A stretch of 64,000 nucleotides of DNA, taken from positions 17,519-81,518 of the forward strand of contig JACRCN010000054.1 in NCBI GenBank assembly GCA_016219005.1. The letters run 5' to 3'. Position numbers and translations under genes: made by a program. This document shows positions 4,692 through 37,164 of the stretch, piece by piece. The notes beneath the pieces were generated by a model, which had not been told where the DNA came from, made no database searches, and saw nothing but the letters and a program-made list of their open reading frames with translations. Each line of letters begins with the position of its first letter. Position 1 is the first letter of the stretch. Origin of the DNA: Deltaproteobacteria bacterium (GTDB lineage Bacteria > Desulfobacterota > Desulfobacteria > Desulfobacterales > SpSt-501).

Positions 4692-4774
4692 ATCTTGACG
4701 GCTTTTGCTGCCATACCACGTGGAAGACTGATTGGTTTTATTGCCACAGCCGCAGCCTTAACACGGCGTTGCAA

Positions 4775-4823
4775 GACAAGCTTCCAACCGCCAGCCAAGG
4801 TGCATGGCGTTGCGGAAGAAGCC
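4775..4823 (+). repeat. Partial copy of repeat family A (left half only)
   Basis: gacaagcttccaaccgccagccaaggtgcatggcgttgcggaagaagcc aligns with the left half of copies 1 and 2. Confidence 0.55.
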
Positions 4824-4844
4824 TTGAGAGGCAGACATTCTCCT

Positions 4845-7253
4845 ATGCTGGCCGCCGTTTTCCTGATATCGGTTTCAACCCTTGCCTTCGAAGTCCTGCT
4901 GGCCCGGATGTTTGCCTTCACCCAGTGGAACCACCTCTCGTTCCTGGTAATCAGCATCGCCCTGTTCGGGTTTGCGGCGAGCGGCACGCTTTTCACCATG
5001 GCGGCACCTGCCGTTGCGAGATGGCGCGGGGTCCACTGGTCGCTGCTGGTGGTTCTGTTCTCGGCCTCGATGCTGGCGGCCGTGATCGGGATGACGCGGA
5101 TCCCCCTGGACTACCACCGCCTGGCTCTCCAGCCGCTTCAGGCCGTCTACCTGTTCGCCGTTTATCTGCTGCTGGCCCTGCCCTTCCTCTTCTCCGGCGG
5201 TCTCGTCTCCGCAGCCTACATGGCGCAGCCGCAGCACACCGCAGCCATCTACTTCGCCGTCATGGCTGGCTCGGCCCTGGGGGTTCTCCTGCCGGTGCCC
5301 CTGCTGTCCGTGGGCAGCGAACCCGGCCTGGTCGTAATCGCAGCCATGGTCCCGCTGGCAGCACCGGGGGTCATGCTCACAGACGATTGGCGCAGGCGCA
5401 GCCGGCATGACCGTGGCGCCGTCCTCGCCGTGTCCGCCGCCGGCCTCCTGGTTCTCATGGCGGCAGCGTGGCTGCTAACCCCGGGCGCGCAGGAGGTTCG
5501 CGACCCGAAGCCTTCCGAGTTCAAATTTCTTTCCCAGATCCAATCGCTGCCCGGCACGCGCATCGTGGCGACCACCGCAGACATCCGCGGCCGGGTGGAC
5601 CGCGTCCAGGGCCCGCACCTGCGTTTCGCCCCCGGCCTCAGTCTCAAGCACGCCGCCCCCTTGCCGCAAGCGACGGCGGTGCTCACGGACGGCGACCGGC
5701 CCGTCTTCCTCTACGATCGCAGCGCGGCTGCGAATGCGCACTTCGCCCGGGACACCCTGTCCTTTGCCGGCTACGAGCTGCACGGCCGCCCCGGCAGCGT
5801 TCTGGTGCTTCTGTCCGGCGGCGGGCAGGCCGTTGCCTGCGCGCTGGCCTCCGGCGCCGGCCGCATCCAGATTCAGCACGCCAACCCCCGCGTCGCGGAT
5901 CAGATCCGCAGCCACTACGGCCTGCCCGTGGCCGCGACCCCTGCCCGCTCCTACCTGGCGCAGTCGGCCGAGCGCTTCGACATCGTGCACGTCGAAAGCC
6001 CGGGGGCCTCGATGCCCGGCGCGGACGCCCTAGACCAGGACCATCTGCTCACCATAGAAGCCTTCGGCGAGTATCTGCGGCACCTCTCCCCGAACGGCGT
6101 GCTCATCGTGTCGCGCCGCTTGCTGCTGCCCCCCGCTGATTCGCTGCGGCTATGGGCCACCGCCCGGCAAGCCCTCGCGCGCGGCGGTGCGACCCATCCC
6201 GAGCGCAGCATCATCATCCTGCGGTCATGGGACACCTATACCCTGATGGTGTTCCAAGAACCGCCCGCCGATCCCGCCCTGATCCAGGAGGTCGCGCACC
6301 GGGGCAATTTCGACGTGGTCTATGCCGACGGCGCCGACGATTCGCTCAGCAACCGCTACAATGTCTTCGACGCCCCCTACCATTTCCGCGAGCATCTTCA
6401 GCTGGCGAGCGCCGTGCGCAAAGCCGCCGCCGAGGAATACTTCCGTGATTATGCGATGGACGTCGCGCCCCAAACGGACCGCCAGCCCTTCCCCGGGCAC
6501 TTTTTGAAATGGTCCCGTCTGCCGGACCTTTACCGGATGCTGGGCAGCCGCCTGCACGCCTTCGGATTATCGGGGGAAGTGGTGGTGGCTCTCGCCCTGG
6601 CGGAGGCGTTCGGGGTGTCCGCGATGCTGCTCCTGCTGCCGATCGCGGCGATCAAACGCAGGCGAGAACGGATCCCATGGCGGGTGACGATCTTCTTTCT
6701 CGGTATTGGCGCCGGCTTCATGCACGCTGAACTGCTTTTCGTCTACCTCGGCACCTATCTGCTGGGCGACCCGGTGATCAGCCTCACGCTCACTCTGGCG
6801 GGGACCCTGGTCTCCTCCGGGCTCGGAGGGCTCTGGAGCGGCATGCGGGGAGCAGGCTGCCTGCGCGCCTCCACGGGGGCAGCGGCCCTGGTGCTCGGGT
6901 TGGCGGCGGCTGGCCTCATGCTGTTTTCATCCCATGTGCTCGCGCTGCCGGCGCCGGTTCGGGGCGCCGTGCTCCTCGCGGCGGTCATGATACCCGGATT
7001 CCTGATGGGGATGCCCTTCCCCCTCGCCATGCGCCACCTGGCGCAGAGCACGGCCGTCAAGGCCTACGCCTGGTCCGCCAACGGGTGCGCCTCGGTGCTG
7101 GCCTCGATTCTCAGCGCGCAGATCGCAATCGCTGCGGGTTTTGAATGGGTCCTCGCCGCCGCCGTTATTACATATGGAATCGCCTTTATGGCGTTCCTGC
7201 GCACCCGGTTGACTATGGGCACTAAGACACATACGGTCATGCAAGGAAGTTGA
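4845..7253 (+). CDS. Spermidine-synthase-like protein flanked by N- and C-terminal multi-pass membrane domains
   Basis: I start the gene at ATG 4845 (MLAAVFLISVSTLAFEVLLARMF...), because the longer ORF from 4695 is built from repeat A sequence. It has an N-terminal block of hydrophobic helices, a central SpeE-like region (FDIVHVESPGASMPGADALDQDHLLTIEAFGEYLRHLSPNGVLIVSRRL) and a C-terminal hydrophobic block. Confidence 0.75.
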   Translation: MLAAVFLISVSTLAFEVLLARMFAFTQWNHLSFLVISIALFGFAASGTLFTMAAPAVARWRGVHWSLLVVLFSASMLAAVIGMTRIPLDYHRLALQPLQAVYLFAVYLLLALPFLFSGGLVSAAYMAQPQHTAAIYFAVMAGSALGVLLPVPLLSVGSEPGLVVIAAMVPLAAPGVMLTDDWRRRSRHDRGAVLAVSAAGLLVLMAAAWLLTPGAQEVRDPKPSEFKFLSQIQSLPGTRIVATTADIRGRVDRVQGPHLRFAPGLSLKHAAPLPQATAVLTDGDRPVFLYDRSAAANAHFARDTLSFAGYELHGRPGSVLVLLSGGGQAVACALASGAGRIQIQHANPRVADQIRSHYGLPVAATPARSYLAQSAERFDIVHVESPGASMPGADALDQDHLLTIEAFGEYLRHLSPNGVLIVSRRLLLPPADSLRLWATARQALARGGATHPERSIIILRSWDTYTLMVFQEPPADPALIQEVAHRGNFDVVYADGADDSLSNRYNVFDAPYHFREHLQLASAVRKAAAEEYFRDYAMDVAPQTDRQPFPGHFLKWSRLPDLYRMLGSRLHAFGLSGEVVVALALAEAFGVSAMLLLLPIAAIKRRRERIPWRVTIFFLGIGAGFMHAELLFVYLGTYLLGDPVISLTLTLAGTLVSSGLGGLWSGMRGAGCLRASTGAAALVLGLAAAGLMLFSSHVLALPAPVRGAVLLAAVMIPGFLMGMPFPLAMRHLAQSTAVKAYAWSANGCASVLASILSAQIAIAAGFEWVLAAAVITYGIAFMAFLRTRLTMGTKTHTVMQGS

Positions 7254-12012: not shown

Positions 12013-13098
12013 TCACGACGTTTTCCGACCAACTGCCAGCTTCGCCGCCAGCTTGATGGCCTCGATCATGGATTGGGGGTTTGCGCGACCTTCACCCGCC
12101 TTGCCGAAGGCCGTCCCGTGGTCGACCGATACGCGAATGATCGGCAGGCCCAGGGTGATGTTCACCCCTGCCAACTGGCCCCAGGTCCCGGTCGTGTCGT
12201 CGTATTGGAAGCCGATCAGCTTGGTCGGGATGTGGCCCTGGTCGTGGTACATCACGACGACGAGGTCGTACATGCCGCCGCGCATTTTTGAAAAAACGGT
12301 GTCGGCCGGCAGGGGGCCATCGGCGGCAATGTGCTCCGCCCTGGCCGCTGCCACCGCCGGCGCGATCTCTTGATCGTCCTCGTTGCCGAAGAGCCCTCCC
12401 TCTCCGCAATGCGGGTTCAGCCCGGCCACCCCGATCTTGGGCGATTGAATTCCAAGTTGCCGAAGGGCTTGGTGGGCCAGGCGGATTACGTTGAAAACGC
12501 GCTCCTTCTTCACGCGCTCGCAGGCCTCCCGCAGCGCTACGTGGGTGGACACGTGCGCAACCCTGAAGTTCCCATCCGCCAGCATCATGGAGTAATTCCG
12601 GGTCTTGGTGAGATCGGCGTAGATTTCCGTGTGCCCGGCATAGTGGTAGCCGGCGGCGTTGATGGCGGCCTTGTTGATGGGGCCGGTCACGGTGGCGTCG
12701 ACCTCATCGGCCATGGCCAGTTCGATCACCTTGGCCACGTATTCGAAGGAGGCCCGGCCTTGCGCCGCGGTAACCTGCTTGTGCCGCAGCTGATCCAGCG
12801 GCAGGTTTTTCAGGTCGAACACGTCGAGACCGCCGAGGGCGAAGCTCGCCTCGGAAACCGCTTGTCTTCCCGCCACTTCCAGCTTCAGGCCGCAAAAGCG
12901 CACGGCGTTGGCCATGACCCCGGCGTCGCCGATCACGATCGGTCGGCACATGTCATAAATTTCCTTCAGCGCCAGCGTCTTGGCGCAAACCTCCGGCCCG
13001 ATCCCGGCCGGGTCGCCCATGGATATGCCGATGATCGGCAGCTGTTCAGATGCCACGAAGACCCCCTTTTCCTTTGGTTGCTTTTTCAATACTGCCAT
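12013..13098 (-). CDS. PdxA-family 4-hydroxythreonine-4-phosphate dehydrogenase-like oxidative decarboxylase
   Basis: Motifs MGDPAGIGPE, GHTEIYADL, GLNPHCGEGG and VDHGTAFGKAG. I start at ATG 13098 (MAVLKKQ...). Confidence 0.85.
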   Translation of the reverse strand: MAVLKKQPKEKGVFVASEQLPIIGISMGDPAGIGPEVCAKTLALKEIYDMCRPIVIGDAGVMANAVRFCGLKLEVAGRQAVSEASFALGGLDVFDLKNLPLDQLRHKQVTAAQGRASFEYVAKVIELAMADEVDATVTGPINKAAINAAGYHYAGHTEIYADLTKTRNYSMMLADGNFRVAHVSTHVALREACERVKKERVFNVIRLAHQALRQLGIQSPKIGVAGLNPHCGEGGLFGNEDDQEIAPAVAAARAEHIAADGPLPADTVFSKMRGGMYDLVVVMYHDQGHIPTKLIGFQYDDTTGTWGQLAGVNITLGLPIIRVSVDHGTAFGKAGEGRANPQSMIEAIKLAAKLAVGRKTS

Positions 13099-13205
13099 AG
13101 TGAAGCCGATTTGCTTTTCCCGTGGGAGTGGCTTCCAGCTGCGATGGCATTGCCAACTGCAGTCGATTTTCAAGCGCGGCCCCGTCATCGGCGACGTTGG
13201 GCGTT

Positions 13206-14483
13206 TTACGGAGCCGACACGTTGATCGGGAGAAGATCCGGCGCATGGCTCAGCACCGTCACGCGTGCGTTCTTCCCCTGCCGCCGCAGCGCCTCATCCA
13301 CCGCCCACTGCACGCTGGGCGCGTGAGTGTGGCCCAGCTTTTCCTTGTGCTCGGCCGGGATGCCCGGCGAATAGGTGACCACCGTGGCTTTTTCGCGGAC
13401 CAGGGCCCAGGCGGTGGCCAGTGCCGCGGCAACACCGTTCTTCAGCCGTCCGGCCCGATAGGCGGCCTTGATCTGCGCCGACGACCAGGCCGTGTAGGAC
13501 AGCAGATCGGTGTGCACCGGGCTCACTCCCTCCGGCGCCGGCGTGCATACGACGATGGTCCCGCCGGGCTTGACCATGCGTTGGGCCGGGTATTGCGCTT
13601 TGTGGGATTGCCAGAAATCCAGGTCGCAGGGATACGAGTTGGCGACCACGATATCGGGTGTTTCACGGTATTCGACGCCGTAGATCTTCCGTGCGGCCTG
13701 AACCCCCTTCCGGAAGGCGGCACGCATCTCGCCATAGAAGACATCGGTGACTCTGCCTTCGCTGTCCATGACGACGTTGAAGATGGTCTGCATGCCGACG
13801 CGATCGGCCATGTCGTCCATGTCCCGGCGGACCGGGTTGTCTTCGATCCCCAGCAACGAATCCCCGCCGCCCTCGCAGGAGAGCATGTGCGTCGCTGCGG
13901 TCGTTCCGGGGCCGCTAACCCCCGGTTGAATGATCTTGGAGCTGCCGGAATAGCCGGGGATGTGGTGCGGGACGATGGCGCCCAGTCCGATGACGACGTC
14001 GGCCTCGACCACCGCGCGGTTCACCTGCAGCGGAGTCCCGGCGCTGGAGGCGCCGAGATCCACAAGGTTTTCAGCCTCTCGCCAGGCATGGTTGAAGACG
14101 CGGATGCGGCGCCAGACTTCCTGCCCCACCTTGTCTATCATCTCGCCATCGGTCATAGCGCGGTGGGTGCCCAGGGCCATGATGCAGGCAATGTTGCGGT
14201 CGGGCAGGCCGGCGGCATTCAGCCGGGCGAGCAGCGGAGGGATCATGCGGTCTGCCGGTGTCAGCCGCGTGTTGTCGTCGCTCACCAGGAGCACCCGATC
14301 CGAGGGCTTGATCCACTGTTCGATGGGCGGCTGCCCGATGGGGTTGGCCAAAGCCGCATGGATGGCCGCATCCAGATCCGGGAGGGGGGTGGTGACATTG
14401 GGTTTCAGAACCTGCGCCAGGTTCCGTTCGGGCACCTCGAACCGCAGAGGGTTGCCGCCGAAGGGTATCGTGACGGTTGTCAT
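13206..14483 (-). CDS. LarA-like nickel-pincer-dependent 2-hydroxyacid racemase/epimerase family protein (DUF2088)
   Basis: VLLVSDDNTRLTP, and GAIVPHHIPGYSGSSKII, which matches the LarA His...GxSGGxK region containing the cofactor-tethering Lys. I start at ATG 14483 (MTTVTIPFGG), preceded by GAGGA. Confidence 0.8.
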   Translation of the reverse strand: MTTVTIPFGGNPLRFEVPERNLAQVLKPNVTTPLPDLDAAIHAALANPIGQPPIEQWIKPSDRVLLVSDDNTRLTPADRMIPPLLARLNAAGLPDRNIACIMALGTHRAMTDGEMIDKVGQEVWRRIRVFNHAWREAENLVDLGASSAGTPLQVNRAVVEADVVIGLGAIVPHHIPGYSGSSKIIQPGVSGPGTTAATHMLSCEGGGDSLLGIEDNPVRRDMDDMADRVGMQTIFNVVMDSEGRVTDVFYGEMRAAFRKGVQAARKIYGVEYRETPDIVVANSYPCDLDFWQSHKAQYPAQRMVKPGGTIVVCTPAPEGVSPVHTDLLSYTAWSSAQIKAAYRAGRLKNGVAAALATAWALVREKATVVTYSPGIPAEHKEKLGHTHAPSVQWAVDEALRRQGKNARVTVLSHAPDLLPINVSAP

Positions 14484-14560
14484 ACAGGATCCTCGTGAAT
14501 GATATAGGGCATCTTGAATTACTCGATTCGGCAAGGTGAGTCAACAGGGGCTGGCTCGGC

Positions 14561-15394
14561 TCAGTCGCTGTCGGGTCCCGGGCCGGCCCGCAGCATCTCG
14601 CCCACGGTAACGAGACGGAACCCCTTGCGGCGCAGTTCGCCGATGATGTCGGGCAGCGCTTGCGCGGTGTTCCAGCCGCGGCCGTTCATGTGCATGACGA
14701 CAATCGAGCCGTTGCGCGCACCCGTCGTCACGGAGCGCAGCAAACGCTCCTTCGATGTGCCCGGATCCGGGTCGCCGGAAGCAAGATCGAACTGAACGGT
14801 TATCAACCCGGCTTCGGCAGTGATCCGCGAGATGCGCTCGTCATGCTCCCCGTACGGGGGCCGATAGAGGGACGCCTGCCGCCCGGTCAACGAATACATG
14901 ACGATCTGGGTCCAGCCGAGTTCCTGGCGCACCTGGTCATCCGGGCTCCGGGTCATGTGCGGGTGCAGAAACGAGTGATTCCCGAGCTCGAACAAATCGA
15001 CCGCGGCCAGCCGGCGGGTCTGATCCGGATGCTCCAGCATCCACTTCCCGCCCAGGAAGAGGGTCGCCGGGGTTCGGGTCTCGATCAAGACCCGGATGAC
15101 CTCCTCATCGTATCCGCTCGCAATTTTCGTGGCGCAGGCATCAAACGTGAGAGCGACCCGTTTTCGCCTTCGATCGCCGTGGAAAACCACCTGAGGTTTC
15201 ACCGGCGCGGGCGACGGCGGATGATCCAGAGCCAGGGGCGAAGTCGCATAACGGCGCACGGCTTCCTTGAGGCTCTCCAATGGAGCCTCCGCCATCACGA
15301 CCGAGGAGGCACCGGCCGCCGTCCCGGCGAGCGCGATGATCAGAGCCCACCGGATGAACTTTCGTTTCAAGTCATTGACCGCTTTGCCGACCAT
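14561..15394 (-). CDS. Polysaccharide deacetylase (NodB homology domain), secreted
   Basis: VALTFDAC, the HSFLHPHM His motif and LYRPPYGE. The N-terminus has a hydrophobic signal (WALIIALAGTAAGASSVVMAEA). Confidence 0.8.
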   Translation of the reverse strand: MVGKAVNDLKRKFIRWALIIALAGTAAGASSVVMAEAPLESLKEAVRRYATSPLALDHPPSPAPVKPQVVFHGDRRRKRVALTFDACATKIASGYDEEVIRVLIETRTPATLFLGGKWMLEHPDQTRRLAAVDLFELGNHSFLHPHMTRSPDDQVRQELGWTQIVMYSLTGRQASLYRPPYGEHDERISRITAEAGLITVQFDLASGDPDPGTSKERLLRSVTTGARNGSIVVMHMNGRGWNTAQALPDIIGELRRKGFRLVTVGEMLRAGPGPDSD

Positions 15395-15439
15395 GGGCTA
15401 TCATAACGCACGTTTCCGAAACTGGCGAGACCGCAGCGA

Positions 15440-16732
15440 ATGAATGCTATCCTCCAGCACTTGAGAGCGAATCACCTGGCCGGGCGGCGCGGCGGCCTGT
15501 ACGCCGTTTGTTCGGCGCGCCGCGAGGTGATCGAAGCGGCGATGGCATTGGCCCGGGACCACGGTGAGCCCCTTCTGGTGGAGGCTACGGCCAACCAGGT
15601 CAACCAATTCGGCGGCTACACCGGGATGACGCCCTCGGAGTTTGCGTCCGGCCTCCTATCCATCGCCGCCGCTCTGGGATTGCCCCGCAAAGACCTGCTT
15701 TTGGGAGCCGACCACTTGGGGCCTTACGCGTGGAGAAAAGAGCCGGCCGCGGCGGCCATGGCCAAGGCGGCTGAACTGGCCCGCCGATGCGTGGAAGCCG
15801 GTTTCCACAAACTGCACCTGGACGCCGCTTGCGGGTGCCGCGACGACCCGCCGCAGGGCCTTGCCCTGGAAATCGCCGCCGAGCGCACGGCGACCTTGTG
15901 CCAGGCTGCCGAAACAGCCGCCGAGCGTCTGCCCGGCCGCCGGCAGAGGCCTTATTATGTCATCGGGGCCGAGGTCCCGATTCCGGGAGGCACCTTGGAG
16001 AACCCGGAGAACATTCAGGTCACGCAGCCAGAGGACGTGGCGGAGTTCATTGCGCTGGCTGAATCGCGATTCCAGAAAGTCGCCCTGTCCGGTGCGTGGG
16101 AGCGGCTGCTCGCGGTGATCGTCCAACCCGGTGTTGAGTTCGGAAATCTCGGCGTCGCCCGCTATGTGCCCGCGAAGGCCCGTGCGCTCTCGGCGTTTCA
16201 TCGGAACCTGCCGGGGATCATGACCTACGAGATTCACTCCACCGACTACCAGACGCCCGCGTCACTGGCACGCATGGTTGCGGATCATTTCACCCTGCTC
16301 AAGGCCGGACCCTGTTTGACCGACGCCTTCCGCGAAGCGGTGTTCTCCCTGGAAGAGATTGAAGCCGAGCGCCTAAAATCCAGGCGGGATGCCGTTGCGT
16401 CCGATCTGCGCCGGGTCATGGAGCGGTTGATGCTGCAACACCCGGTGCATTGGCCGTCCCATTATCGCGGCACCGAAGAAGAGTGCCGCCGCATGCGTCT
16501 TTCCAGCCGGCTCGACCGGATCCGCTACTACTGGGGATATCCGGAGGCGCAGGCGGCCCTCGACCGCCTGCACCGGAACCTTGCGCCCTCGGTGCCCGCC
16601 GACCTGGTTGAGCGGTACTTTGCGGACCACGCCTCGATCCTATCGTCCGGCGAGCCGGTCCTGAACTCCGCTGAGATCATCCGGCGCCGGATCCAGAAAA
16701 CGCTGCGGCCTTATCTCGACGCCTGCCGATAG
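15440..16732 (+). CDS. GatZ/KbaZ/AgaZ family protein (class II tagatose-bisphosphate aldolase accessory subunit / tagatose-6-P kinase-like)
   Basis: Strong resemblance to GatZ: LVEATANQVNQFGGYTGMTPSEF, LGADHLGP, GFHKLHLDA. Confidence 0.85.
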   Translation: MNAILQHLRANHLAGRRGGLYAVCSARREVIEAAMALARDHGEPLLVEATANQVNQFGGYTGMTPSEFASGLLSIAAALGLPRKDLLLGADHLGPYAWRKEPAAAAMAKAAELARRCVEAGFHKLHLDAACGCRDDPPQGLALEIAAERTATLCQAAETAAERLPGRRQRPYYVIGAEVPIPGGTLENPENIQVTQPEDVAEFIALAESRFQKVALSGAWERLLAVIVQPGVEFGNLGVARYVPAKARALSAFHRNLPGIMTYEIHSTDYQTPASLARMVADHFTLLKAGPCLTDAFREAVFSLEEIEAERLKSRRDAVASDLRRVMERLMLQHPVHWPSHYRGTEEECRRMRLSSRLDRIRYYWGYPEAQAALDRLHRNLAPSVPADLVERYFADHASILSSGEPVLNSAEIIRRRIQKTLRPYLDACR

Positions 16733-19473
16733 GGTGGCAGAATTGTCAGAAACGAGGATTGCCGGGGATCTTTTTCGATGAACCGGCGGATCCACTCCTG
16801 GCCTGAAGGTGACGCCACCACCTCGCCGAAGAGCTTGGCATCGTTTTTCAGACCCTTGCGGAACCCGGCCCGGTAGCCGTATTCGAGCGCCCGGATTGCG
16901 TATCCGGACGCGAACCTGCGCGCGGCAGGAAGATCTTTTACTTCATCCTCTTGCACCTCTCCCGCGGACAGCAGTTCCTGGACCGTGGAGCTCTTCAGCA
17001 AGGATTTCAACTGACCCTTCTGACGCGCGGCCAGCGCATCCCACTCCCTGCACGGTGGTTTTTTCCTGCCTTCGATGAAAGCCCGAGCCGCGCGGAACGC
17101 GACGCGCAGCGCCGTCCCCGGGGGGGCCATCTCATCCACCAGCCCCATCCGGAGGGCCTCTCTGGCGCCGACCGGCTCGCCGTTCACGCTCATTTCGACA
17201 GCTTTGCGGGGACCGACCAGCCGCGGAAGGCGCTGCAGGCCGCCGTAGCCCGGAATGATCCCCAGCTTGATCTCCGGCTGGCCGATCACGGCGTTCTCGG
17301 TCGCGATGCGATAGTGGGCGGACATGCCCAGCTCGTTGCCTCCGCCCAGGGTGAAACCGTCCAGAACGGCGATGACCGGGATCTTGAGATTCTCGATCTC
17401 GGAGAAGAGCCTGAGGACCGACAGCGCAATCTCCTCGATGCGCTGGGCGCTGCGGCCGGCAAACTCCGTCACGTCCGCGCCGGCCACGAAGGCCCGCCCT
17501 GCCCCTCTGAGGATGAGGCCGCGCACCCGCCGGCCTTGAATGCCCCTGCGGGTTCTGAGCTCTGCGACCACCTCCCCCAACCCGCGGATGAGATCGTGGT
17601 TGAGGGCATTCAGGGCCTCGGGTCGGCACAAAGTCAGAATGCCCACCTCGCCTGCCAGGTGGAAATCGACATGGCGCCTTTTTCCGGCGTCGGACCGGAT
17701 CAGGTGCTCGCCCAGATAGCCGTCCTCGAAGGCTGCGATGCTGCGGCCGGCGCGGTCGGCCTGCACCAGCGCAACGCCCTTGGGTTTATCCATTCGTCCG
17801 TCGAGCATTTTCTGCTGGATTTCCGGCAATCCTTCCAGACCGACCACATCCAGATCTGCCTGCTCCATCACCAGCGCCTTCCGGGAGAGCAGCCGGACGA
17901 CATCGCGGGCCTGGGATGAGCGATACATGTGGGAGCCGAGAATGGAGAGATTCGACGAACCGCGGACAACGACAAACCCGCAGGGCATGTCGTCCTGCTC
18001 GGTGAAGTCCCTCAGCAGGAACGTGCTGAAGTGCAGTGTGCTCTGATCGGTCCGCTCCGCAATGAAATCCGGGCTCACCTTCGGCCCGAACACATCCCAC
18101 ACCGCCTTGCCCAGGGCGCGGGCGGAGGCCATGTAATCCCGGCCGTAGGCGGGGTTGGGCCGTCCGGCCTCGGTAAGGGGATCCGGCATGTCCTGCGGCA
18201 GCACGAATCGGTCGCGGTCGATGATCTGGGAGTCGGCGATCCCGAGGGCCTGCATGTCCCGGATGCCCGCCGTCTCCCTGGAGCGCGATGCCACCACAGC
18301 CAGGCGCGCCTGCCGCTCCAGCGCCGCCCGGGCAAAATCCAGCGCGTAGCCGTCGGCGCCCCAGATCAGTCCGTTGCGGCCCGCCGGCAAGCGGATCTCG
18401 GTGAAGATCTCGCGCGGAGTCCGGTTGCGGAAGATGATCTGCTTCTGCCGCATCCAGACCCACCGGGCATCCATGACGAACCGTCGGCCCCCGTAGAAAA
18501 AGCTTTCCTTATACTCGCCTTTCATGCCCCGGCCGGTCGCGCCGAAGAAGGCCAGCCGGCCGTTTTCAGCCAGCACCGACACCAGCAGAGGGAAATTGCG
18601 GCCGCCGGTGTGCTCGAAGATCCTGTCAACGGGTTGACCGTGATTGGCCGCCAGCACGATCTCCCGGAATGGCGCGGTTTTCTCCAGCCACTCATCCGCC
18701 GAAAGATCGGCAGGAACAACCCCGAAGGCGCTTTCCGGGACTCGCCGCCGGTCGATGAAGGCATCGGCGATCCCGCGCTCGATGAGCGCACGGCCGAGCC
18801 CGGCGTTGGAACCCATGAGGATCACGCGAGCCCCCAGCGCCTTGGCGATCTGGGCGCCCGCGAAACTGGTCCCCTTCCCGCCGCCCATCAACAGCACGCT
18901 GTCCCCCGGCGCCACCGCCAGCCGTTCGACCACGGCCCGATAGGCGGTGGCGTAAGTAAGCAGTGTAGCGGCCATACGCTCGGGACTTTGGGACTTGAGC
19001 TCATCCGGCACCGCCAGCGCGCGCTCCTCGTCGACCATGGCGAACTGGGCGTTGAAGCCGTCATGGGTCTCGTAGCCGCGGACGATGTTCCGTCCCGTCC
19101 AGGAATCCAGGATGACCGCCTGCCCGACTTTGACGTTCTTAACGCCGGCGCCGGCGTCCACGACGATGCCGAGAGCGTCGCTGCCGGGCACGTGAACCGT
19201 GCCGGCATCCCCTCTGCCGAACACCGGAACCGGAAGCCCCAGGCTGGCGAAATTGGTGTTGAAATTGGGGCCCGTGGCCAGGACGGCGACGAGGACCCGG
19301 TTGGCGTCCTCCGGGTGCAGGCGAGGCACCGCCACGTCTTCGAGATGGATTGCACGTGAGGGTGGCCCGTAGAGATCTCTTCGAATCGTGAGGGCGTCCA
19401 TCCGCTCCGGGATGGCGGCGGAGACACAGGGAGCCGACCCCAGGGGCCATTTTGAGGCGATCTTTCCTGCCAT
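16711..19473 (-). CDS. Large fusion protein: MDR-type (crotonyl-CoA-reductase-like) oxidoreductase, extra Rossmann-like middle region, C-terminal enoyl-CoA hydratase
   Basis: I start at ATG 19473, preceded by GAGGAGG. The N-terminal part is an MDR zinc-ADH-like fold (GSDALGIVVDAGAGVKNVKVGQAV, LLMGGGKGTSFAGAQIAKALGARVI). The C-terminal part is crotonase-like (FVAGADVTEF, LDGFTLGGGNELGMSAHYRIA, IKLGIIPGYGGLQRL). Confidence 0.8.
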   Translation of the reverse strand: MAGKIASKWPLGSAPCVSAAIPERMDALTIRRDLYGPPSRAIHLEDVAVPRLHPEDANRVLVAVLATGPNFNTNFASLGLPVPVFGRGDAGTVHVPGSDALGIVVDAGAGVKNVKVGQAVILDSWTGRNIVRGYETHDGFNAQFAMVDEERALAVPDELKSQSPERMAATLLTYATAYRAVVERLAVAPGDSVLLMGGGKGTSFAGAQIAKALGARVILMGSNAGLGRALIERGIADAFIDRRRVPESAFGVVPADLSADEWLEKTAPFREIVLAANHGQPVDRIFEHTGGRNFPLLVSVLAENGRLAFFGATGRGMKGEYKESFFYGGRRFVMDARWVWMRQKQIIFRNRTPREIFTEIRLPAGRNGLIWGADGYALDFARAALERQARLAVVASRSRETAGIRDMQALGIADSQIIDRDRFVLPQDMPDPLTEAGRPNPAYGRDYMASARALGKAVWDVFGPKVSPDFIAERTDQSTLHFSTFLLRDFTEQDDMPCGFVVVRGSSNLSILGSHMYRSSQARDVVRLLSRKALVMEQADLDVVGLEGLPEIQQKMLDGRMDKPKGVALVQADRAGRSIAAFEDGYLGEHLIRSDAGKRRHVDFHLAGEVGILTLCRPEALNALNHDLIRGLGEVVAELRTRRGIQGRRVRGLILRGAGRAFVAGADVTEFAGRSAQRIEEIALSVLRLFSEIENLKIPVIAVLDGFTLGGGNELGMSAHYRIATENAVIGQPEIKLGIIPGYGGLQRLPRLVGPRKAVEMSVNGEPVGAREALRMGLVDEMAPPGTALRVAFRAARAFIEGRKKPPCREWDALAARQKGQLKSLLKSSTVQELLSAGEVQEDEVKDLPAARRFASGYAIRALEYGYRAGFRKGLKNDAKLFGEVVASPSGQEWIRRFIEKDPRQSSFLTILPPYRQASR

Positions 19474-19601
19474 AAGAACCTCCTCTGAATGTGGACAAGG
19501 TGTCAGGGGTTGGAGACTCGGACGCAATGAATTAAGAATCCGGCTTCACGCCTGGAGCGAAATTTTCTGCCCCCCTGCCGTATCAATTCTCCCACAGCTC
19601 A

Positions 19602-20519
19602 TTATTCCTGCTCACCCAGGCGCACGTGGGCCAATTGCTCGAACCAGCGCGCCACGTCGGTATGGTCCAAGCCCCTGCCCAACGACGACTGGGCGGCCGC
19701 CCACAGCTCGCGGCAGGCGTTGCAGAACGGGGTCGGAACCTCTAGCTCGCGGGACAGGTCTACCGCGGTGTTCAGGTCCTTGAGCATTAGATCCAGGGAA
19801 AAGCCCGAGGAAAAGGACCTGGATAAGACGTACTTTTCTATTTTATTCTCAGTGCTATTGTTACGGCCGGTGGAGGCATTGAGAATGTCATTCATGACCT
19901 TGGGATCCACACCGAAACGACGCCCCACTAACAAGACCTCGGCCGCCGCGATAAACCCGGCCGCCGATAGCATGTTGTTCAGAGCTTTCACCGCGTGCCC
20001 CGAACCCAGCGGGCCGCTGAAGAAAATACGCTCACCCATTGCCGCAAAAACCGGTCGGCAACGCTCCAGCACTTCCGGGCTGCCACCCGCCATGATGGCC
20101 AGAGTGCCGTCACGGGCCTTGGAAACACCGCCAGAAACCGGTGCGTCCATCAATTGGACGCCCCTTGAAGTCAACCATTTTCCCAATTCTCGGGTGGCCA
20201 AGGGTGACGAAGAACTCATGTCCACCAGAATTGACCCCGGTGCCATGGAGGAGGCCATGCCAACCTTTTCGCCCGACCCCAGGACGACGGCCTGAACTGC
20301 CTTGCTGTCGGGCAGCATCGTGATGATCAACTCGCTCCGCCGGGCCACTTCCGCTGGGCTTTCGCATCCCACCGCCTTATGCTCCGCCATAAACTGCTCC
20401 TTAACCCTGCGGTCGAGGTCATATACCTGCAATGCAAAGCCGGCGGCGGCCAGCCGGCCCGCCATGGGAAAGCCCATTTTACCCAGGCCTACGAAACCTA
20501 TTTGCTGCGGCGTTGGCAT
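19602..20519 (-). CDS. NAD(P)-dependent beta-hydroxyacid dehydrogenase (HIBADH / tartronate-semialdehyde-reductase family)
   Basis: IGFVGLGKMGFPMAGRL Rossmann motif; also DAPVSGG and GSGHAVKALNN. ATG 20519 is preceded by ACAGGAG. The ORF-track start at 20534 is a GTG. Confidence 0.85.
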   Translation of the reverse strand: MPTPQQIGFVGLGKMGFPMAGRLAAAGFALQVYDLDRRVKEQFMAEHKAVGCESPAEVARRSELIITMLPDSKAVQAVVLGSGEKVGMASSMAPGSILVDMSSSSPLATRELGKWLTSRGVQLMDAPVSGGVSKARDGTLAIMAGGSPEVLERCRPVFAAMGERIFFSGPLGSGHAVKALNNMLSAAGFIAAAEVLLVGRRFGVDPKVMNDILNASTGRNNSTENKIEKYVLSRSFSSGFSLDLMLKDLNTAVDLSRELEVPTPFCNACRELWAAAQSSLGRGLDHTDVARWFEQLAHVRLGEQE

Positions 20520-20570
20520 GCGTGCTCCTGTCACTTGATCGCGTTTGGCACGAAAAGCGTATCCGGTTGG

Positions 20571-21470
20571 TTACAAGGCTCCGATTGCGACGAGAGCACG
20601 CCGGACCTCCTCAATGCCGTCCGGTGGCAGCGGGGCCTGGGGTAACAATGGAGCACCCACGGCATAACCCTGAAGCTCGAGGCCCCCCTTGATGCAAGCA
20701 GCGAGGTTGTATTTGGCGAAAGCTTGGTTCAGGGCCCACAGACGTCGTTGAAGGTTCATTGCCGCCTCCCAGGACCCGCGACGGCAGAGTTCATAGAGTT
20801 CAACACTCTGCCGTGGTGCAATGCAAGCTGGCCCGGCCATCCAGCCCACTCCGCCTATCAGCATCACGCACGCCGGAATGTGCGCGGAGGCGGAAAAAAC
20901 TTTCATCCGTTCTCCCACCTGGTTGATGATCGCAAGCAACCGTCCCGTATTGGAGGAGGCATCCTTGATGTAGCCGATGTTCGATATGTGGCTCAGCCGG
21001 TCTATGATGGGCAGGCTCAAATCCGAACGCTGGAAGTTAGGATTCGTGTAAAGCACCAATGGGACAGAAACGGCTTTGGCAATCGCACTGAAGTACGCGA
21101 ACACACCTTCGTCGGATACGGGAAAATAGGACTCAAGGATAGCGAGGATGCCGCTGCAGCCGAGACGTTCGAATTCGCGTGATTGTGCGACGGCATCAGC
21201 AGTAGTGGTCGCAGCGACGCCTGCGATCACCGGAACACGGCCGCGCGCCGAATCGATGACGATTTGCACGATACGCCGGCGTTGCGGCCAGGACAGATAG
21301 GCGAACTCGCCGGTCGAACCTAAGGGAGTCAGGCCATGCACACCCGCTTGGATGAGATCCTCGCAGAGACGCGCAAGGACGTCTGCTTTTATTTCGCCGG
21401 AGGAGTCAATGGGTGAGACGAGATACGGAAAGACGCCATGAAACCCCATTTCAGTCAATGCTGACCTCAC
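20571..21470 (-). CDS. DapA/DHDPS-family pyruvate-dependent class I aldolase/lyase
   Basis: [20 protein letters not shown], and GYIKDASS with the Schiff-base Lys context. The GTG start overlaps the upstream stop (GTGA). An alternative ATG is at 21449. Confidence 0.8.
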
Positions 21471-23119
21471 TTTTCGATCAACGGCCGCGCGGGTTCGATT
21501 GGCCCGGCATCGATGGACCCGTCGCCTTTTGGGATGGGTTTAAACTGCCAGATATTTTCACCACCGGGGGAAAGACGGACCTGAAGGTGTCCCTGCCACT
21601 GCGCATCGTTCTGGCCCGGGAAGTCTTCCCTGAAATGGGCTCCCCGGCTCTCGCGACGCATTAAGGCGGCTTCGAGAATAAGCGTCGCCACCCCTGCCGC
21701 GGAACGAAGTTCGATCAAATCGAGCAACGCTTTACCGTTTAACCTGGATTTGGATGATGGCGCTGGTGTTTCATTTTGAATGTCCTTCACGGCGTCCAGC
21801 GCCCGGGAGAGCCCCCTTTCCTCCCTAATAATCCCTCCGTCCTCCCACATTATCTTTCTGAGGCGGTCTTTATGCTCAACTCCGATAGGCGTGCCGCTTG
21901 ACCATTTGCGGGCCCTTTCACGCAACGCCTTCACGAGGGCCTGACGGTCGCCACCACCCGAGCGCTTTGCCCAAGCAGCCGCTGCGCTTCCCGCTCTGGC
22001 CCCAAAGACGAGCGTCTCGCTCAATGCGTTTCCTCCCATCCGGTTGGCTCCGTGCAGCCCCCCCGCCGCCTCGCCGGCCGCGAAGAGTCCCGGCACCGTG
22101 GTGGCCCCCGTGGCATCAATTCTCGCGCCCCCCATGCTGTGATGGGCCGCCGGCGCTACGCGCACAGGTCGGCTGCCGGCCGCATAGCGCTCCGAGAGCA
22201 AGCCTCTCAAGGAAACAGCGAATGGGTCAACCCGCCAGTCTTCTTCGGACAGGTTGCGGAGGTCCAGCCAGACATTCTTATGGTTTCGGTAAATCTCTTT
22301 GAAAAGTGCCTGAGAAAGGCGGTCTCTTGCCCTCTCGCCGGCCGGACGTTCCGTAATCCCGTATTTTTCCAGGATATCTTCTTTGTCGTCATTGAGGAGT
22401 CGACCGCGGTCCGCTAATCTCGGGGGGATCACGAGCGGTGTCGTACCGGGATCGGATAGGCATAGCGGATAAAACTGGATGAATTCCATGTCCTGAAGCA
22501 TGGCCCCGGCCTCTAAAGCCAACCGGTAACCCTCACCGAGAATCCGTCTGGGGTTATCGGTACGGAGGTAGAGCGCGGATGCTCCGCCCGCCGCCATGAT
22601 GACGGCCCCGGCCGTAAGAGCAACCCAGTTGCCCGACGACTTCTCATAGGCGTTCACTCCGCCGGCGTCATGGCTGACTAAAACGTCCGTGACCATCAGG
22701 TTGCCCCAAAAACGAGTGCCAAGCGCTTCATTTCTTCTCAAAAGACAGCGAACGATCTCCTCTCCGGGCACCGGAGAGCGGCCCTTGGCGTAGAGATATC
22801 CATTTAAAAAATCCGCATGAATCCCCCAGCGCATGAGTTCATCCAACCGGCAAGGTGCCTCCTCGACCAGAATCGCGGCGAGGTTACTCTCATTCAGACC
22901 CCTGCCGGCTGTAAGGGTATGCTCCAGATGGGTGTCGCGTATTTCCCCGCCTGGACTGCCGGCCATCACGCCGGCACTGAAACCGGTGCATGTGGATTTG
23001 CCGGGACTACCCTTCGATACCACGCAGACCGAAAGCCCCGCCGCGCGCACCGATAGGGCCGCGCGCAACCCCGCTGCGCCGCTTCCAATCACGATCACGT
23101 CGAAAGAGACCTGTCGCAT
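21467..23119 (-). CDS. FAD-dependent oxidoreductase of the L-aspartate oxidase / fumarate reductase flavoprotein family (no covalent-His motif)
   Basis: [16 protein letters not shown]; HSMGGARID; [14 protein letters not shown]. The position of the SDH covalent-FAD His is [12 protein letters not shown] start at ATG 23119. Confidence 0.75.
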
Positions 23120-23257
23120 ATACTGTCTGCCAATCCCCCAGCGGTGCAAGCCGGATCAGGCCTTCATCGCCAATCGGTCAATTTCATTTCATTGCAGGAG
23201 TGAAACCGAGCTGGCGGTCCATTTCGAGGAAATCCGCAAAGAGCCCGCTCCCTCTGA

Positions 23258-34383: not shown

Positions 34384-34416
34384 TGCCTGCCCCCTCTCTA
34401 TGGCGATGATCAGCGA

Positions 34417-35598: not shown

Positions 35599-35652
35599 CG
35601 CATTCTCCTAAAAATAAGTTGTGGCGGGTTCAGTCCGCCGCCCTCTCCGGTC

Positions 35653-37005: not shown

Positions 37006-37130
37006 GGTGAGAGTCTCCTGCGTTGCGACCATGGGTGTTCGTATAAGATCAATCCGTCGAACGTGCGCCGGAACCGGAGCGCGCACCCGCGTGATCGTCC
37101 GATCATCACGGATCACCACGATCCGATCTA

Positions 37131-37164
37131 TGTCGACAATATACAATCGTCCACCATATGTCAA
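37131..37164 (-). promoter_or_regulatory. Candidate sigma70 promoter with adjacent TGTCGACA palindrome upstream of the PrpD-family gene
   Basis: The minus strand reads TTGACA (37164..37159), a 15-nt spacer, TATATT (37143..37138), then immediately the 8-bp palindrome TGTCGACA (37138..37131). The spacer is shorter than optimal. Confidence 0.35.

What the first reader, a model, noticed from the sequence alone, without database searches (positions are those of the whole stretch)
16711..19473. 920-aa fusion of an MDR enoyl-reductase-like domain, an extra Rossmann-like region and an enoyl-CoA hydratase
A single ORF with a strong SD joins a crotonyl-CoA-reductase-like MDR fold (N-terminal), a second nucleotide-binding-like middle segment, and a complete crotonase fold (C-terminal: FVAGADVTEF, LGGGNELGMSAHYRIA). 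Hydratase-reductase fusions are known from the three-domain propionyl-CoA synthase of the 3-hydroxypropionate bi-cycle. Here, however, the order is reversed and there is no ligase domain. This suggests substrate channelling between hydration/dehydration and reduction of an enoyl-CoA, possibly acting on products of the neighbouring dicarboxylate genes.
Basis: partly seen in the sequence, partly recalled or inferred. Interest (0 to 1): 0.55.

Follow-up and report, generated by a model that had tools for sequence, protein, structure and literature searches.

The report
Two-domain relative of propionyl-CoA synthase
This is a real 920-residue enzyme that joins an enoyl-CoA reductase to an enoyl-CoA hydratase. 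It most likely turns 3-hydroxypropionyl-CoA into propionyl-CoA without releasing toxic acrylyl-CoA, and it belongs to a widespread, unstudied family found almost only in uncultured bacteria.

Summary
Window 16711-19473 (minus strand) is one intact 920-aa gene with a GAGGAGG ribosome-binding site. It is identical to NCBI MBI5579901.1, which carries only a generic hydratase name.

Residues ~20-590 are a crotonyl-CoA-carboxylase/reductase-type (ECR) reductase with a ~160-residue degenerate second Rossmann-like module inserted. Residues ~597-906 are a complete crotonase-fold hydratase. Both halves match the three-domain propionyl-CoA synthase (PCS, PDB 6eqo) best, by sequence and predicted fold. 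Here the ligase is missing and the two domains are swapped.

The architecture is a conserved family: more than 400 protein clusters, about 145 species-level genomes, nearly all MAGs. In one clade the unit is fused to, or followed by, a malonyl-CoA-reductase-like module (~2,580-aa proteins). That clade also has a neighbouring relative of archaeal 3-hydroxypropionate/4-hydroxybutyrate-CoA ligases. Distant relatives carry ligase-reductase-dehydratase in one chain.

Best reading: 3-hydroxypropionyl-CoA to acrylyl-CoA to propionyl-CoA, using NADPH. The reductase keeps every CO2-pocket residue of true carboxylases, so methylmalonyl-CoA as product is not excluded.

I found no publication on the family.

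The parts
16711..19473 (-). Complete CDS, 920 aa plus stop codon (16711-16713). Two-domain reductase-dehydratase.
   Evidence: exact match to NCBI MBI5579901.1; near-full-length homologues
19479..19485 (-). Shine-Dalgarno sequence GAGGAGG, 5 nt upstream of the ATG
   Evidence: read directly from the sequence
18919..19416 (-). Reductase, N-terminal catalytic (GroES-like) part, residues ~20-185. Carries the ECR CO2-pocket equivalents N72, T73, S98, Y134 and E135.
   Evidence: Pfam ADH_N 58-157; alignments to CCR 4gi2 and K. setae ECR 6na3; invariant or nearly invariant in the family
18424..18918 (-). Reductase, canonical NADPH Rossmann domain, residues ~186-350. Has the glycine loop GGGKGTS (197-203), S222, R242 and the CCR-like motif DARWVWMRQKQI (335-346).
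   Evidence: Pfam ADH_zinc_N 205-316; alignment to 4gi2; invariant columns
17938..18423 (-). Inserted degenerate second Rossmann-like module, residues ~351-512. Its loop reads WGADGYA in place of a glycine-rich motif. PCS has the same insert; stand-alone CCR/ECR enzymes do not.
   Evidence: DSSP beta-alpha-beta units; ECRs of ~430 aa align over ~600 columns; in-register self-similarity to residues 203-249; second half matches CCR ~292-387; aligned with PCS up to residue 1730
17704..17937 (-). Reductase, C-terminal return to the catalytic domain, residues ~513-590. Has the GSH motif (H515, inferred equivalent of ECR H365) and KPKGVALVQ (563-571).
   Evidence: alignment to AntE 'LQGSH' and to the ADH1 C-terminal strand; same column in PCS-type relatives; invariant
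17074..17685 (-). Crotonase-fold 3-hydroxyacyl-CoA dehydratase / enoyl-CoA hydratase core, residues ~597-800. Has the oxyanion-hole motif FVAGADV and catalytic Glu714 (GGGNELGM) and Glu734 (QPEIKLG).
   Evidence: Pfam ECH_1 151.5 bits; PCS 908-1103 and crotonase alignments; E714 and E734 invariant
16756..17073 (-). Helical C-terminal extension of the dehydratase, residues ~801-906. It is of the PCS and FadB/FadJ type.
   Evidence: aligned to PCS 1104-1203 and to FadB/FadJ profile positions up to ~295; helices 811-906 in the model

Best explanation
The gene encodes a bifunctional, ligase-less and domain-swapped relative of propionyl-CoA synthase.

Proposed mechanism:
1. The C-terminal crotonase domain dehydrates 3-hydroxypropionyl-CoA to acrylyl-CoA, using the Glu714/Glu734 pair.
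2. The N-terminal ECR-type reductase reduces acrylyl-CoA with NADPH to propionyl-CoA.
3. The reactive, toxic acrylyl-CoA is passed between the two fused active sites rather than released.

The substrate must be supplied as a CoA thioester by a separate ligase or CoA-transferase.

Shown here: the domain identities, intact catalytic and cofactor motifs, the closest relatives, and the recurrent fusion and neighbourhood partners.

Inferred: the substrate, the product, the direction and the channelling.
For: - Both halves match PCS (6eqo) best among solved structures. By sequence, query 612-902 aligns with PCS 908-1203 and query 15-491 with PCS 1242-1730. By fold, 655 columns align at E 2.7e-33. 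The match includes the PCS-type insert in the reductase and the helical extension of the dehydratase.
- Catalytic and cofactor residues are intact and invariant across 46 homologues: E714, E734, GGGKGTS, S222, R242, H515.
- Rosetta-stone evidence. In about 18 of 80 genome loci the unit is fused to, or directly followed by, a ~1,660-aa module. That module's best PDB matches are the bifunctional malonyl-CoA reductases 8hjw, 8hi4 and 6k8v/6k8s. Their known product is 3-hydroxypropionate.
- In 11 loci of that clade an ADP-forming acyl-CoA synthetase lies 1-2 kb upstream. Its best PDB matches are the 4-hydroxybutyrate-CoA ligase (8wzu) and 3-hydroxypropionate-CoA ligase (9y43).
- Distant relatives put an AMP-forming ligase, the reductase and the dehydratase in one chain in this same order: P0148 (2,388 aa) and P0145 (6,910 aa).
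- The window protein is 61% identical over 890 residues to the N-terminal part of a giant fused form.
- A crotonase acts on 3-hydroxyacyl-CoA, not on 4-hydroxyacyl-CoA. Of the two hydroxyacids suggested by the ligase match, only 3-hydroxypropionate fits. This step rests on established crotonase chemistry.
Against: - There is no biochemical data for any family member.
- The window has no ligase, CoA-transferase or MCR-like gene. The MCR-like module was found only in other lineages. So the source of 3-hydroxypropionyl-CoA in this organism is unknown.
- Stand-alone copies have no conserved neighbours in any phylum examined.
- Over its first 346 residues the reductase is closer to true crotonyl-CoA carboxylase/reductase (4gi2, 116 bits) than to PCS (65 bits). 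It also keeps the whole CO2 pocket. The product may therefore not be propionyl-CoA, and the acyl chain may not be C3.
Confidence: 0.45

Rival explanations
1. Same two steps, but the reductase domain is a true reductive carboxylase. The path would be 3-hydroxypropionyl-CoA to acrylyl-CoA, then + CO2 + NADPH to (2S)-methylmalonyl-CoA. This would skip ATP-dependent propionyl-CoA carboxylase.
For: - The four residues that define the ECR CO2 pocket (N81, F170 with Tyr tolerated, E171, H365) and the second-shell T82 and S119 (PMC6628652) map to N72, Y134, E135, H515, T73 and S98. N72, Y134, E135 and H515 are invariant in the family; T73 and S98 are nearly so.
- The two PCS representatives examined have Asp at the T82 position.
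- The first 346 residues score higher against a genuine CCR (4gi2, E 1.5e-32) than against PCS. The DARWVWMRQKQI motif is almost identical to the CCR DARYVWMRQKRI.
- PCS itself has a latent carboxylase activity that a few engineered changes raised to 97% (PMC10266731 and PMC10176493).
Against: - The two PCS representatives aligned here also keep most pocket residues. PCS is described as having only a promiscuous carboxylation activity (PMC10176493), so these residues are necessary but not sufficient.
- The score against the curated CCR model TIGR01751 is 168.6, against a cut-off of 378.55.
- The H365 equivalence rests on a weak alignment (E about 0.03).
- No solvent-shielding geometry could be checked.
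Confidence: 0.25
2. The enzyme acts on other acyl-CoAs. One option is 3-hydroxybutyryl-CoA to crotonyl-CoA to butyryl- or ethylmalonyl-CoA. Another is C5-dicarboxylyl-CoAs (itaconyl-, mesaconyl-, citramalyl-CoA) made by the upstream PrpD-like, SucCD-like and CitE-like genes.
For: - The reductase resembles crotonyl-CoA carboxylase/reductases. One marine family member was auto-labelled K14446, which I recall is the ccr orthologue.
- The dehydratase matches short-chain enoyl-CoA hydratases as well as it matches 3-hydroxypropionyl-CoA dehydratase.
- In the window the gene ends a co-directional string that includes a CitE/RipC-like lyase and a SucCD-like CoA ligase. It lies 128 nt after a 3-hydroxyacid-dehydrogenase-like gene, with no terminator-like site found on its strand.
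Against: - The upstream genes are unique to this window among 76 loci, including close relatives at 78-89% identity.
- The partners that recur across the wider family are an MCR-like module, hydroxyacid-CoA ligase relatives and PCS-type ligases. All point to C3 chemistry.
Confidence: 0.2
3. Acrylyl-CoA detoxification module. Both domains independently consume acrylyl-CoA that arises from acrylate/DMSP or from side reactions, by hydration to 3-hydroxypropionyl-CoA and by reduction to propionyl-CoA. There is no obligatory sequential flux or channelling.
For: - Separate acrylyl-CoA reductases and hydratases both protect bacteria against acrylate toxicity (PMC4029986).
- The stand-alone gene is an orphan without pathway neighbours in most genomes.
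Against: - The fused and adjacent MCR-like and ligase partners imply pathway flux towards the unit.
- pTM of 0.82 over 920 residues suggests a fixed inter-domain arrangement rather than beads on a string.
- Identity of 58-93% across phyla suggests a constrained, integrated machine.
Confidence: 0.08
4. Assembly or annotation artefact: two genes joined by a missed stop or frameshift.
For: None found.
Against: - The 2,760-nt frame is uninterrupted.
- The identical protein is in NCBI.
- Hundreds of homologues of ~914 aa from independent assemblies share the same architecture.
Confidence: 0.01

Closest known systems
Propionyl-CoA synthase (PCS) of the 3-hydroxypropionate bi-cycle; structure 6eqo (Erythrobacter sp. 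NAP1)
   Same: - Best solved match for both halves, by sequence and by fold.
- Same crotonase-type dehydratase with a helical C-terminal extension.
- Same ECR-type reductase carrying an extra Rossmann-like insert of about 160 residues.
- The same two consecutive reactions are expected.
   Different: - No AMP-forming ligase domain.
- Domain order is reductase then dehydratase, not dehydratase then reductase.
- 920 aa against about 1,850 aa.
- The reductase has Thr at the ECR T82 position where PCS has Asp.
- It has an extra CCR-like WMRQK element placed before the insert.
- Identity to PCS is only about 24-36%.
Crotonyl-CoA carboxylase/reductase and other enoyl-CoA carboxylases/reductases (ECR; e.g. 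4gi2, 6owe/6na3, AntE)
   Same: - MDR fold.
- NADPH motif.
- All CO2-pocket and second-shell residues conserved.
- Near-identical DAR(W/Y)VWMRQK motif.
   Different: - Contains an insert of about 160 residues.
- Is fused to a hydratase.
- Scores below the curated TIGR01751 cut-off (168.6 against 378.55).
- The substrate is probably C3 rather than C4.
Stand-alone 3-hydroxypropionyl-CoA dehydratase plus acryloyl-CoA reductase of the archaeal 3-hydroxypropionate/4-hydroxybutyrate cycle (e.g. 5zai)
   Same: The same pair of reactions is proposed. The crotonase domain is similar to 5zai (E 1.7e-33).
   Different: The archaeal enzymes are separate proteins. From my own knowledge (not tested here), their reductase belongs to a different MDR subgroup and lacks the PCS-type insert.
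Bifunctional malonyl-CoA reductase (MCR; 8hjw, 8hi4, 6k8s/6k8v). This is relevant to the giant relatives, not to the window protein itself.
   Same: The extension fused to this unit in other genomes has two SDR modules. Their best PDB matches are the MCR C-terminal and N-terminal domains.
   Different: - The two modules are in swapped order relative to MCR.
- They are preceded by a ~530-residue segment with no detectable relatives or fold match.
- Absent from the window.

Membership tests
Propionyl-CoA synthase (three-domain PCS) | N-terminal AMP-forming acyl-CoA ligase domain (ACAS_N / AMP-binding) | tested here: not met
   No AMP-binding hit in the 920-aa protein. The canonical PCS representative P0147 has it.
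Propionyl-CoA synthase (three-domain PCS) | Domain order ligase - dehydratase - reductase | tested here: not met
   The query has the reductase at 15-591 and the dehydratase at 597-906. In PCS the dehydratase is at 908-1203 and the reductase at 1242-1730 and beyond.
Propionyl-CoA synthase (three-domain PCS) | Crotonase-fold dehydratase with both catalytic glutamates and a helical C-terminal extension | tested here: met
   E714 and E734 are invariant. The alignment to PCS 908-1203 includes the extension.
Propionyl-CoA synthase (three-domain PCS) | ECR-type reductase carrying an extra alpha/beta insert relative to stand-alone ECRs | tested here: met
Propionyl-CoA synthase (three-domain PCS) | Closed multicatalytic chamber that sequesters acrylyl-CoA | not testable with these tools
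   No model coordinates were accessible. No oligomer prediction was possible. The PCS structure paper is not held.
Enoyl-CoA carboxylase/reductase (CCR/ECR; NCBIfam TIGR01751) | Score at or above the curated family cut-off | tested here: not met
   168.6 bits against a cut-off of 378.55.
Enoyl-CoA carboxylase/reductase (CCR/ECR; NCBIfam TIGR01751) | CO2-binding pocket N81, F170 (or Tyr), E171, H365, with second-shell T82 and S119 (PMC6628652) | tested here: met
   The equivalents are N72, Y134, E135, H515, T73 and S98. The H515 equivalence comes from a weak alignment.
Enoyl-CoA carboxylase/reductase (CCR/ECR; NCBIfam TIGR01751) | Reductive carboxylation activity | not testable with these tools
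   Needs an enzyme assay with labelled CO2.
Crotonase / enoyl-CoA hydratase superfamily (Pfam PF00378) | Profile score above the gathering threshold, and both catalytic Glu residues present | tested here: met
   ECH_1 151.5 bits against 27. E714 and E734 are present.
Medium-chain dehydrogenase/reductase superfamily (Pfam ADH_N, ADH_zinc_N) | Both profile hits above gathering thresholds, and a glycine-rich nucleotide loop | tested here: met
   ADH_N 27.6 against 23.5 and ADH_zinc_N 35.0 against 31.8. GGGKGTS at 197-203 is conserved (G197-G199, G201-S203 invariant; K200 nearly so).
FadB/FadJ-type multifunctional beta-oxidation enzyme | 3-hydroxyacyl-CoA dehydrogenase domain following the hydratase | tested here: not met
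   Only profile positions ~15-295 of the FadB/FadJ models are matched, far below their cut-offs. There is no 3HCDH Pfam hit.

The most novel reading that the evidence does not exclude
The reductase domain is a genuine reductive carboxylase, so the enzyme converts 3-hydroxypropionyl-CoA plus CO2 and NADPH directly into methylmalonyl-CoA. Some lineages also carry the fused MCR-like module and the neighbouring ADP-forming hydroxyacid-CoA ligase. There it would form an unrecognised, ATP-saving 3-hydroxypropionate carbon-assimilation module in uncultured anaerobes. That would be a natural counterpart of the 'Ccr variant' of the synthetic HOPAC cycle, which its designers call new-to-nature (PMC10266731).
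Probability: 0.2. Interest if true: 0.9.

Novelty: new variant of a known kind. Interest (0 to 1): 0.6.

Why it matters
PCS is the textbook case of a natural enzyme that encloses a toxic intermediate, and it is a key marker of the 3-hydroxypropionate bi-cycle. This finding matters for four reasons.

- The same chemistry appears to exist in at least three more architectures: reductase-dehydratase alone, ligase-reductase-dehydratase, and a giant reductase-dehydratase-X-MCR-like chain.
- These forms occur in about 145 species-level genomes of mostly uncultured Desulfobacterota, Acidobacteriota, Deferrimicrobiaceae and others. Marker-gene surveys would miss them, because no curated model reaches its cut-off and sources give only generic names. 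One source auto-labelled a family member K14446, which I recall is ccr.
- A compact 920-aa unit that accepts a CoA ester is an attractive part for synthetic CO2-fixation pathways.
- The fully conserved CO2 pocket gives a directly testable question: did nature already make the 'carboxylating PCS' that had to be engineered?

Tried and rejected
- Conserved operon search. ORFs of 76 loci (±10 kb) were clustered by all-against-all BLASTP. Nothing is conserved across the family. Downstream synteny (GatZ-like, deacetylase, LarA-like, PdxA-like) holds only among close Desulfobacterales-type relatives. The upstream dicarboxylate-type genes are unique to the window.
- Neighbours of stand-alone copies in Gammaproteobacteria, Methylomirabilis, Acidobacteriota, Actinomycetota and Propionivibrio are unrelated to each other.
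- No MCR-like, ADP-forming or AMP-forming ligase sequence is in the window.
- NCBIfam labels for the window neighbours are all below curated cut-offs, except the fumarate hydratase alpha subunit.
- The promoter and terminator scan around the gene was not informative. There is no Rfam family in the window.
- Literature: seven full-text searches found no description of this architecture. The PCS structure paper and the carboxylase-engineering paper are not held. My recollection that PCS Asp1302 was an engineering target therefore remains unverified memory.
- The ~530-residue X segment of the giant relatives has no Pfam hit, no PDB sequence match and no Foldseek match, despite a confident model.
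- Internal duplication of the Rossmann module is only marginally supported statistically.

Full report
OBSERVATION

The feature lies on the minus strand. The mechanical ORF is 16711..19527. The biologically sensible start is the ATG at 19473, which follows GAGGAGG (19479-19485) after a 5-nt spacer. This gives 920 residues and a stop codon at 16711-16713. The identical 920-aa sequence is in NCBI as MBI5579901.1, 'MAG: enoyl-CoA hydratase/isomerase family protein [Deltaproteobacteria bacterium]', on an 83-kb contig. GC3 of the ORF is 0.80, within the range of its neighbours. The best 120 homologues come from NCBI, ENA, JGI and Logan assemblies. Nearly all cover 93-100% of the query at 60-93% identity and carry the same Pfam set; one listed hit is a shorter fragment. 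A missed stop or frameshift is therefore excluded.

ANATOMY

Pfam finds ADH_N (58-157), ADH_zinc_N (205-316) and ECH_1 (610-799), all above their gathering scores. No NCBIfam model reaches its curated cut-off. The best are an enoyl-CoA hydratase model (171 bits against 313) and crotonyl-CoA carboxylase/reductase TIGR01751 (168.6 against 378.55). No curated family therefore covers this protein.

Among solved structures the top sequence hit is 6eqo, the three-domain propionyl-CoA synthase (PCS). It matches in two stretches: query 612-902 with PCS 908-1203 (dehydratase), and query 15-491 with PCS 1242-1730 (reductase). An AlphaFold2 model built on 46 homologues is confident (mean pLDDT 86.4, pTM 0.82). 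Its best Foldseek match in the PDB is again 6eqo (655 aligned columns, E 2.7e-33). ECRs follow (4gi2, AntE, 9kva, 6owe): they are about 430 aa but align across about 600 query columns, with TM about 0.75 normalised to the target.

The reductase is therefore an ECR fold with an insert of about 160 residues (~351-512). The model shows repeated beta-alpha-beta units there. The first half of the insert aligns in register with the canonical Rossmann segment: LLMGGGKGTSFAGAQIAKALGARVILMGS...GIADAFIDRR against LIWGADGYALDFARAALERQARLAVVASR...GIADSQIIDRD. The statistics are marginal (E 0.05-0.09). The second half matches the second half of the CCR Rossmann domain. It looks like a degenerate duplicated Rossmann module, it lacks a canonical glycine motif, and PCS has it too.

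The true cofactor site is intact: GGGKGTS at 197-203, S222 and R242, conserved across the family. The dehydratase has the oxyanion-hole motif and both catalytic glutamates, E714 and E734, which are invariant. It also has a helical C-terminal extension that aligns with PCS 1104-1203 and with the N-terminal ~295 positions of FadB/FadJ models.

DISTRIBUTION

A scan of one genome per species found 145 loci that encode a relative. Of the 80 retrieved, nearly all are MAGs. They include Desulfobacterales/Desulfatibacillum-like bacteria (the closest, at 70-89% identity), Acidobacteriota, Desulfuromonadales, Deferrimicrobiaceae, Methylomirabilis, Actinomycetes, Gemmatimonadota and Gammaproteobacteria. 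In an exhaustive search of 1.84 billion representative proteins clustered at 50% identity, the family collapses to one ~920-aa representative (P0115) plus one giant form (P0121), with fragments. The family is thus unusually well conserved across phyla, at 58-93% identity.

WHAT IT IS ASSOCIATED WITH

There is no family-wide conserved neighbourhood. The window's upstream genes have no counterpart in any other locus, even in relatives at 78-89% identity. Those genes are a 3-hydroxyacid-dehydrogenase-like gene, a DHDPS-family gene, a TfrA/NadB-like flavoprotein, class I fumarase, a TAXI-TRAP transporter and SdhCAB. Only the downstream block is syntenic in that close clade: GatZ-like, polysaccharide deacetylase, LarA-like and PdxA-like.

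Three kinds of association recur elsewhere.

(a) In ten loci the unit is the N-terminal third of an ORF of about 1,800-2,700 aa, most near 2,580 aa. About 18 loci have the same ~1,660-aa extension, either fused or directly downstream. The extension has two SDR modules. Its best PDB matches are the bifunctional malonyl-CoA reductases 8hjw and 8hi4, with 6k8v/6k8s also matched. The first module aligns to the MCR C-domain (571-780) and the second to the MCR N-domain (5-213). This module family has 111 clusters, fused or stand-alone, in Deferrimicrobiaceae, 'Deltaproteobacteria', Actinomycetota, Gemmatimonadota and Verrucomicrobiota.

(b) In 11 loci of that clade an ADP-forming acyl-CoA synthetase lies 1-2 kb upstream and divergent. 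Its best PDB matches are the 4-hydroxybutyrate-CoA ligase (8wzu, 2.6e-121) and the 3-hydroxypropionate-CoA ligase (9y43, 8.5e-113). An AMP-forming ligase lies directly downstream in two further loci.

(c) Distant relatives (~28-30% identity) keep the reductase-dehydratase order in other contexts:
- P0149 and P0164 are two-domain proteins.
- P0148 (2,388 aa) is ECH_2 + ACAS_N/AMP-binding + reductase + dehydratase, that is, a PCS with its last two domains swapped.
- P0145 (6,910 aa) contains a hydratase-like domain, the ligase motif FTSGSTGKPKG, reductase-dehydratase and MCR-like modules.
- P0167 fuses the PCS-type reductase to a MaoC dehydratase.

The window protein is 61% identical over 890 residues to the N-terminal part of a giant form.

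MECHANISM

All recurrent partners make or activate 3-hydroxypropionate. A crotonase handles 3-hydroxyacyl-CoA, not 4-hydroxyacyl-CoA. The best-supported function is therefore the last two PCS steps: dehydration of 3-hydroxypropionyl-CoA to acrylyl-CoA, then NADPH-dependent reduction to propionyl-CoA. A separate enzyme would supply the CoA ester. The fusion would limit release of acrylyl-CoA, as described for PCS (summarised in PMC10266731).

The domain identities, motifs, relatives and partners are shown here. The substrate, product and channelling are inferred.

One open point is the product. Stoffel et al. (PMC6628652) define the ECR CO2 pocket as N81, F170 (Tyr tolerated), E171 and H365, with second-shell T82 and S119. 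I aligned to the K. setae enzyme and checked the register against the published N81-T82 adjacency and the F170-E171 pair. The equivalents are N72, Y134, E135, T73 and S98. H515 in the GSH motif is the equivalent of H365, from a weaker alignment. N72, Y134, E135 and H515 are invariant in the family; T73 and S98 are nearly so. The two PCS representatives examined have Asp at the T82 position. The N-terminal 346 residues score higher against a genuine CCR (4gi2) than against PCS. PCS has a latent carboxylase activity that was raised by engineering. Reductive carboxylation to methylmalonyl-CoA is therefore a serious rival.

The gene is last in a co-directional string, 128 nt after the 3-hydroxyacid-dehydrogenase-like gene. 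No terminator-like site was found on its strand, so co-transcription is possible. The upstream PrpD-like, SucCD-like and CitE/RipC-like genes all fall below curated cut-offs and could act on C4/C5 dicarboxylates. Because this adjacency is unique to the window, I treat it as coincidental. A role on such substrates stays as a minor rival.

COMPARISON AND NOVELTY

The protein works like PCS minus its ligase but fails two defining PCS features: the ligase domain and the domain order. It also fails the curated CCR threshold. It is best described as a new architectural variant of the PCS/ECR kind. Seven full-text searches found no description of it. A genome paper on a related lineage (candidate phylum MBNT15) reported that key 3-hydroxypropionate-pathway enzymes were not identified (PMC9386147). 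A 2026 survey selects its 3-hydroxypropionate bi-cycle markers as malonyl-CoA reductase (K14468) and malyl-CoA lyase, and notes that other studies used PCS. The library is incomplete, so prior description elsewhere cannot be excluded.

LIMITS

- There is no biochemistry for any family member.
- No coordinates were available for chamber geometry.
- The two key PCS papers are not held.
- Genome-wide co-occurrence could not be computed.

Noticed in passing
L076 9968-17716 (also L050, L065, L066, L067, L070, L072, L077, L079, L081; proteins P0121, P0270-P0298): Giant proteins of about 2,580 aa: the reductase-dehydratase unit, then a ~530-residue unknown segment, then two MCR-like SDR modules in swapped order (C-domain-like, then N-domain-like). 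Together they could carry malonyl-CoA most of the way to propionyl-CoA in one chain.
   Followed up: partly
L076 12728-14332 (X segment, first ~535 residues of the extension; alignment A3): This segment is well conserved (46-73% identity among 8 sequences, with many invariant residues, e.g. HPxxEW...PH...CE). The AlphaFold2 model is confident (pLDDT 83.5). It has no Pfam hit, no PDB sequence match and no significant Foldseek match (best E 0.25). Fold and function are unknown.
   Followed up: yes
L050 1466-3529 (minus); also L027, L029, L039, L045, L055, L058, L059, L062, L066, L070: An ADP-forming acyl-CoA synthetase lies 1-2 kb upstream of, and divergent from, the reductase-dehydratase gene. 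Its closest solved relatives are the 4-hydroxybutyrate-CoA ligase (8wzu) and 3-hydroxypropionate-CoA ligase (9y43). An alanine-dehydrogenase-like gene (15 loci) and an aldehyde-dehydrogenase-family gene that by eye resembles methylmalonate-semialdehyde dehydrogenase (5 loci) also recur there.
   Followed up: partly
P0145 (6,910 aa) and P0148 (2,388 aa), from the representative library: P0148 is ECH_2 + AMP-forming ligase + reductase + dehydratase, a PCS-like enzyme with its last two domains swapped. P0145 is a 6,910-residue protein that adds MCR-like modules and long unassigned regions. Its origin is unknown.
   Followed up: partly
P0167 (711 aa): A PCS-type reductase fused to a MaoC-fold dehydratase instead of a crotonase. 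This looks like an independent solution to coupling hydration and reduction.
   Followed up: no
Cluster of P0115 (member P0394, Tara Oceans mesopelagic): A marine family member was automatically assigned COG0604 and K14446, which I recall is crotonyl-CoA carboxylase/reductase. Such labels could produce false ethylmalonyl-CoA-pathway calls in metagenome surveys.
   Followed up: no
window 32597-37164 (minus): A PrpD/MmgE-family protein, a SucC-like/SucD-like CoA ligase pair and a CitE/RipC-like acyl-CoA lyase, all well below NCBIfam cut-offs. Next come a GntR/FCD regulator, SdhCAB, a TAXI-TRAP transporter and class I fumarase. This is probably an uncharacterised CoA-dependent dicarboxylate pathway.
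   Followed up: partly
window 19602-23149 (minus): A tightly packed trio (4-nt overlap, then a 36-nt gap): a TfrA/L-aspartate-oxidase-like flavoprotein, a DHDPS-family enzyme and a tartronate-semialdehyde/3-hydroxyisobutyrate-dehydrogenase-like enzyme. It sits immediately upstream of the target, and none of the three reaches a curated cut-off.
   Followed up: partly
window 12013-16732: A GatZ/KbaZ-like gene (plus strand, convergent with the target), then polysaccharide deacetylase, a LarA-like gene (closest to nickel-dependent malate racemases) and a PdxA-family dehydrogenase. This block is syntenic downstream of the target only in close Desulfobacterales-type relatives.
   Followed up: partly
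window 16711-16732: The 3' ends of the target (minus strand) and of the convergent GatZ-like gene (plus strand, ending at 16732) overlap by 22 nt.
   Followed up: no
window 4695-7253 (plus): An 852-aa ORF with high GC3 (0.81) and no Pfam hit.
   Followed up: no
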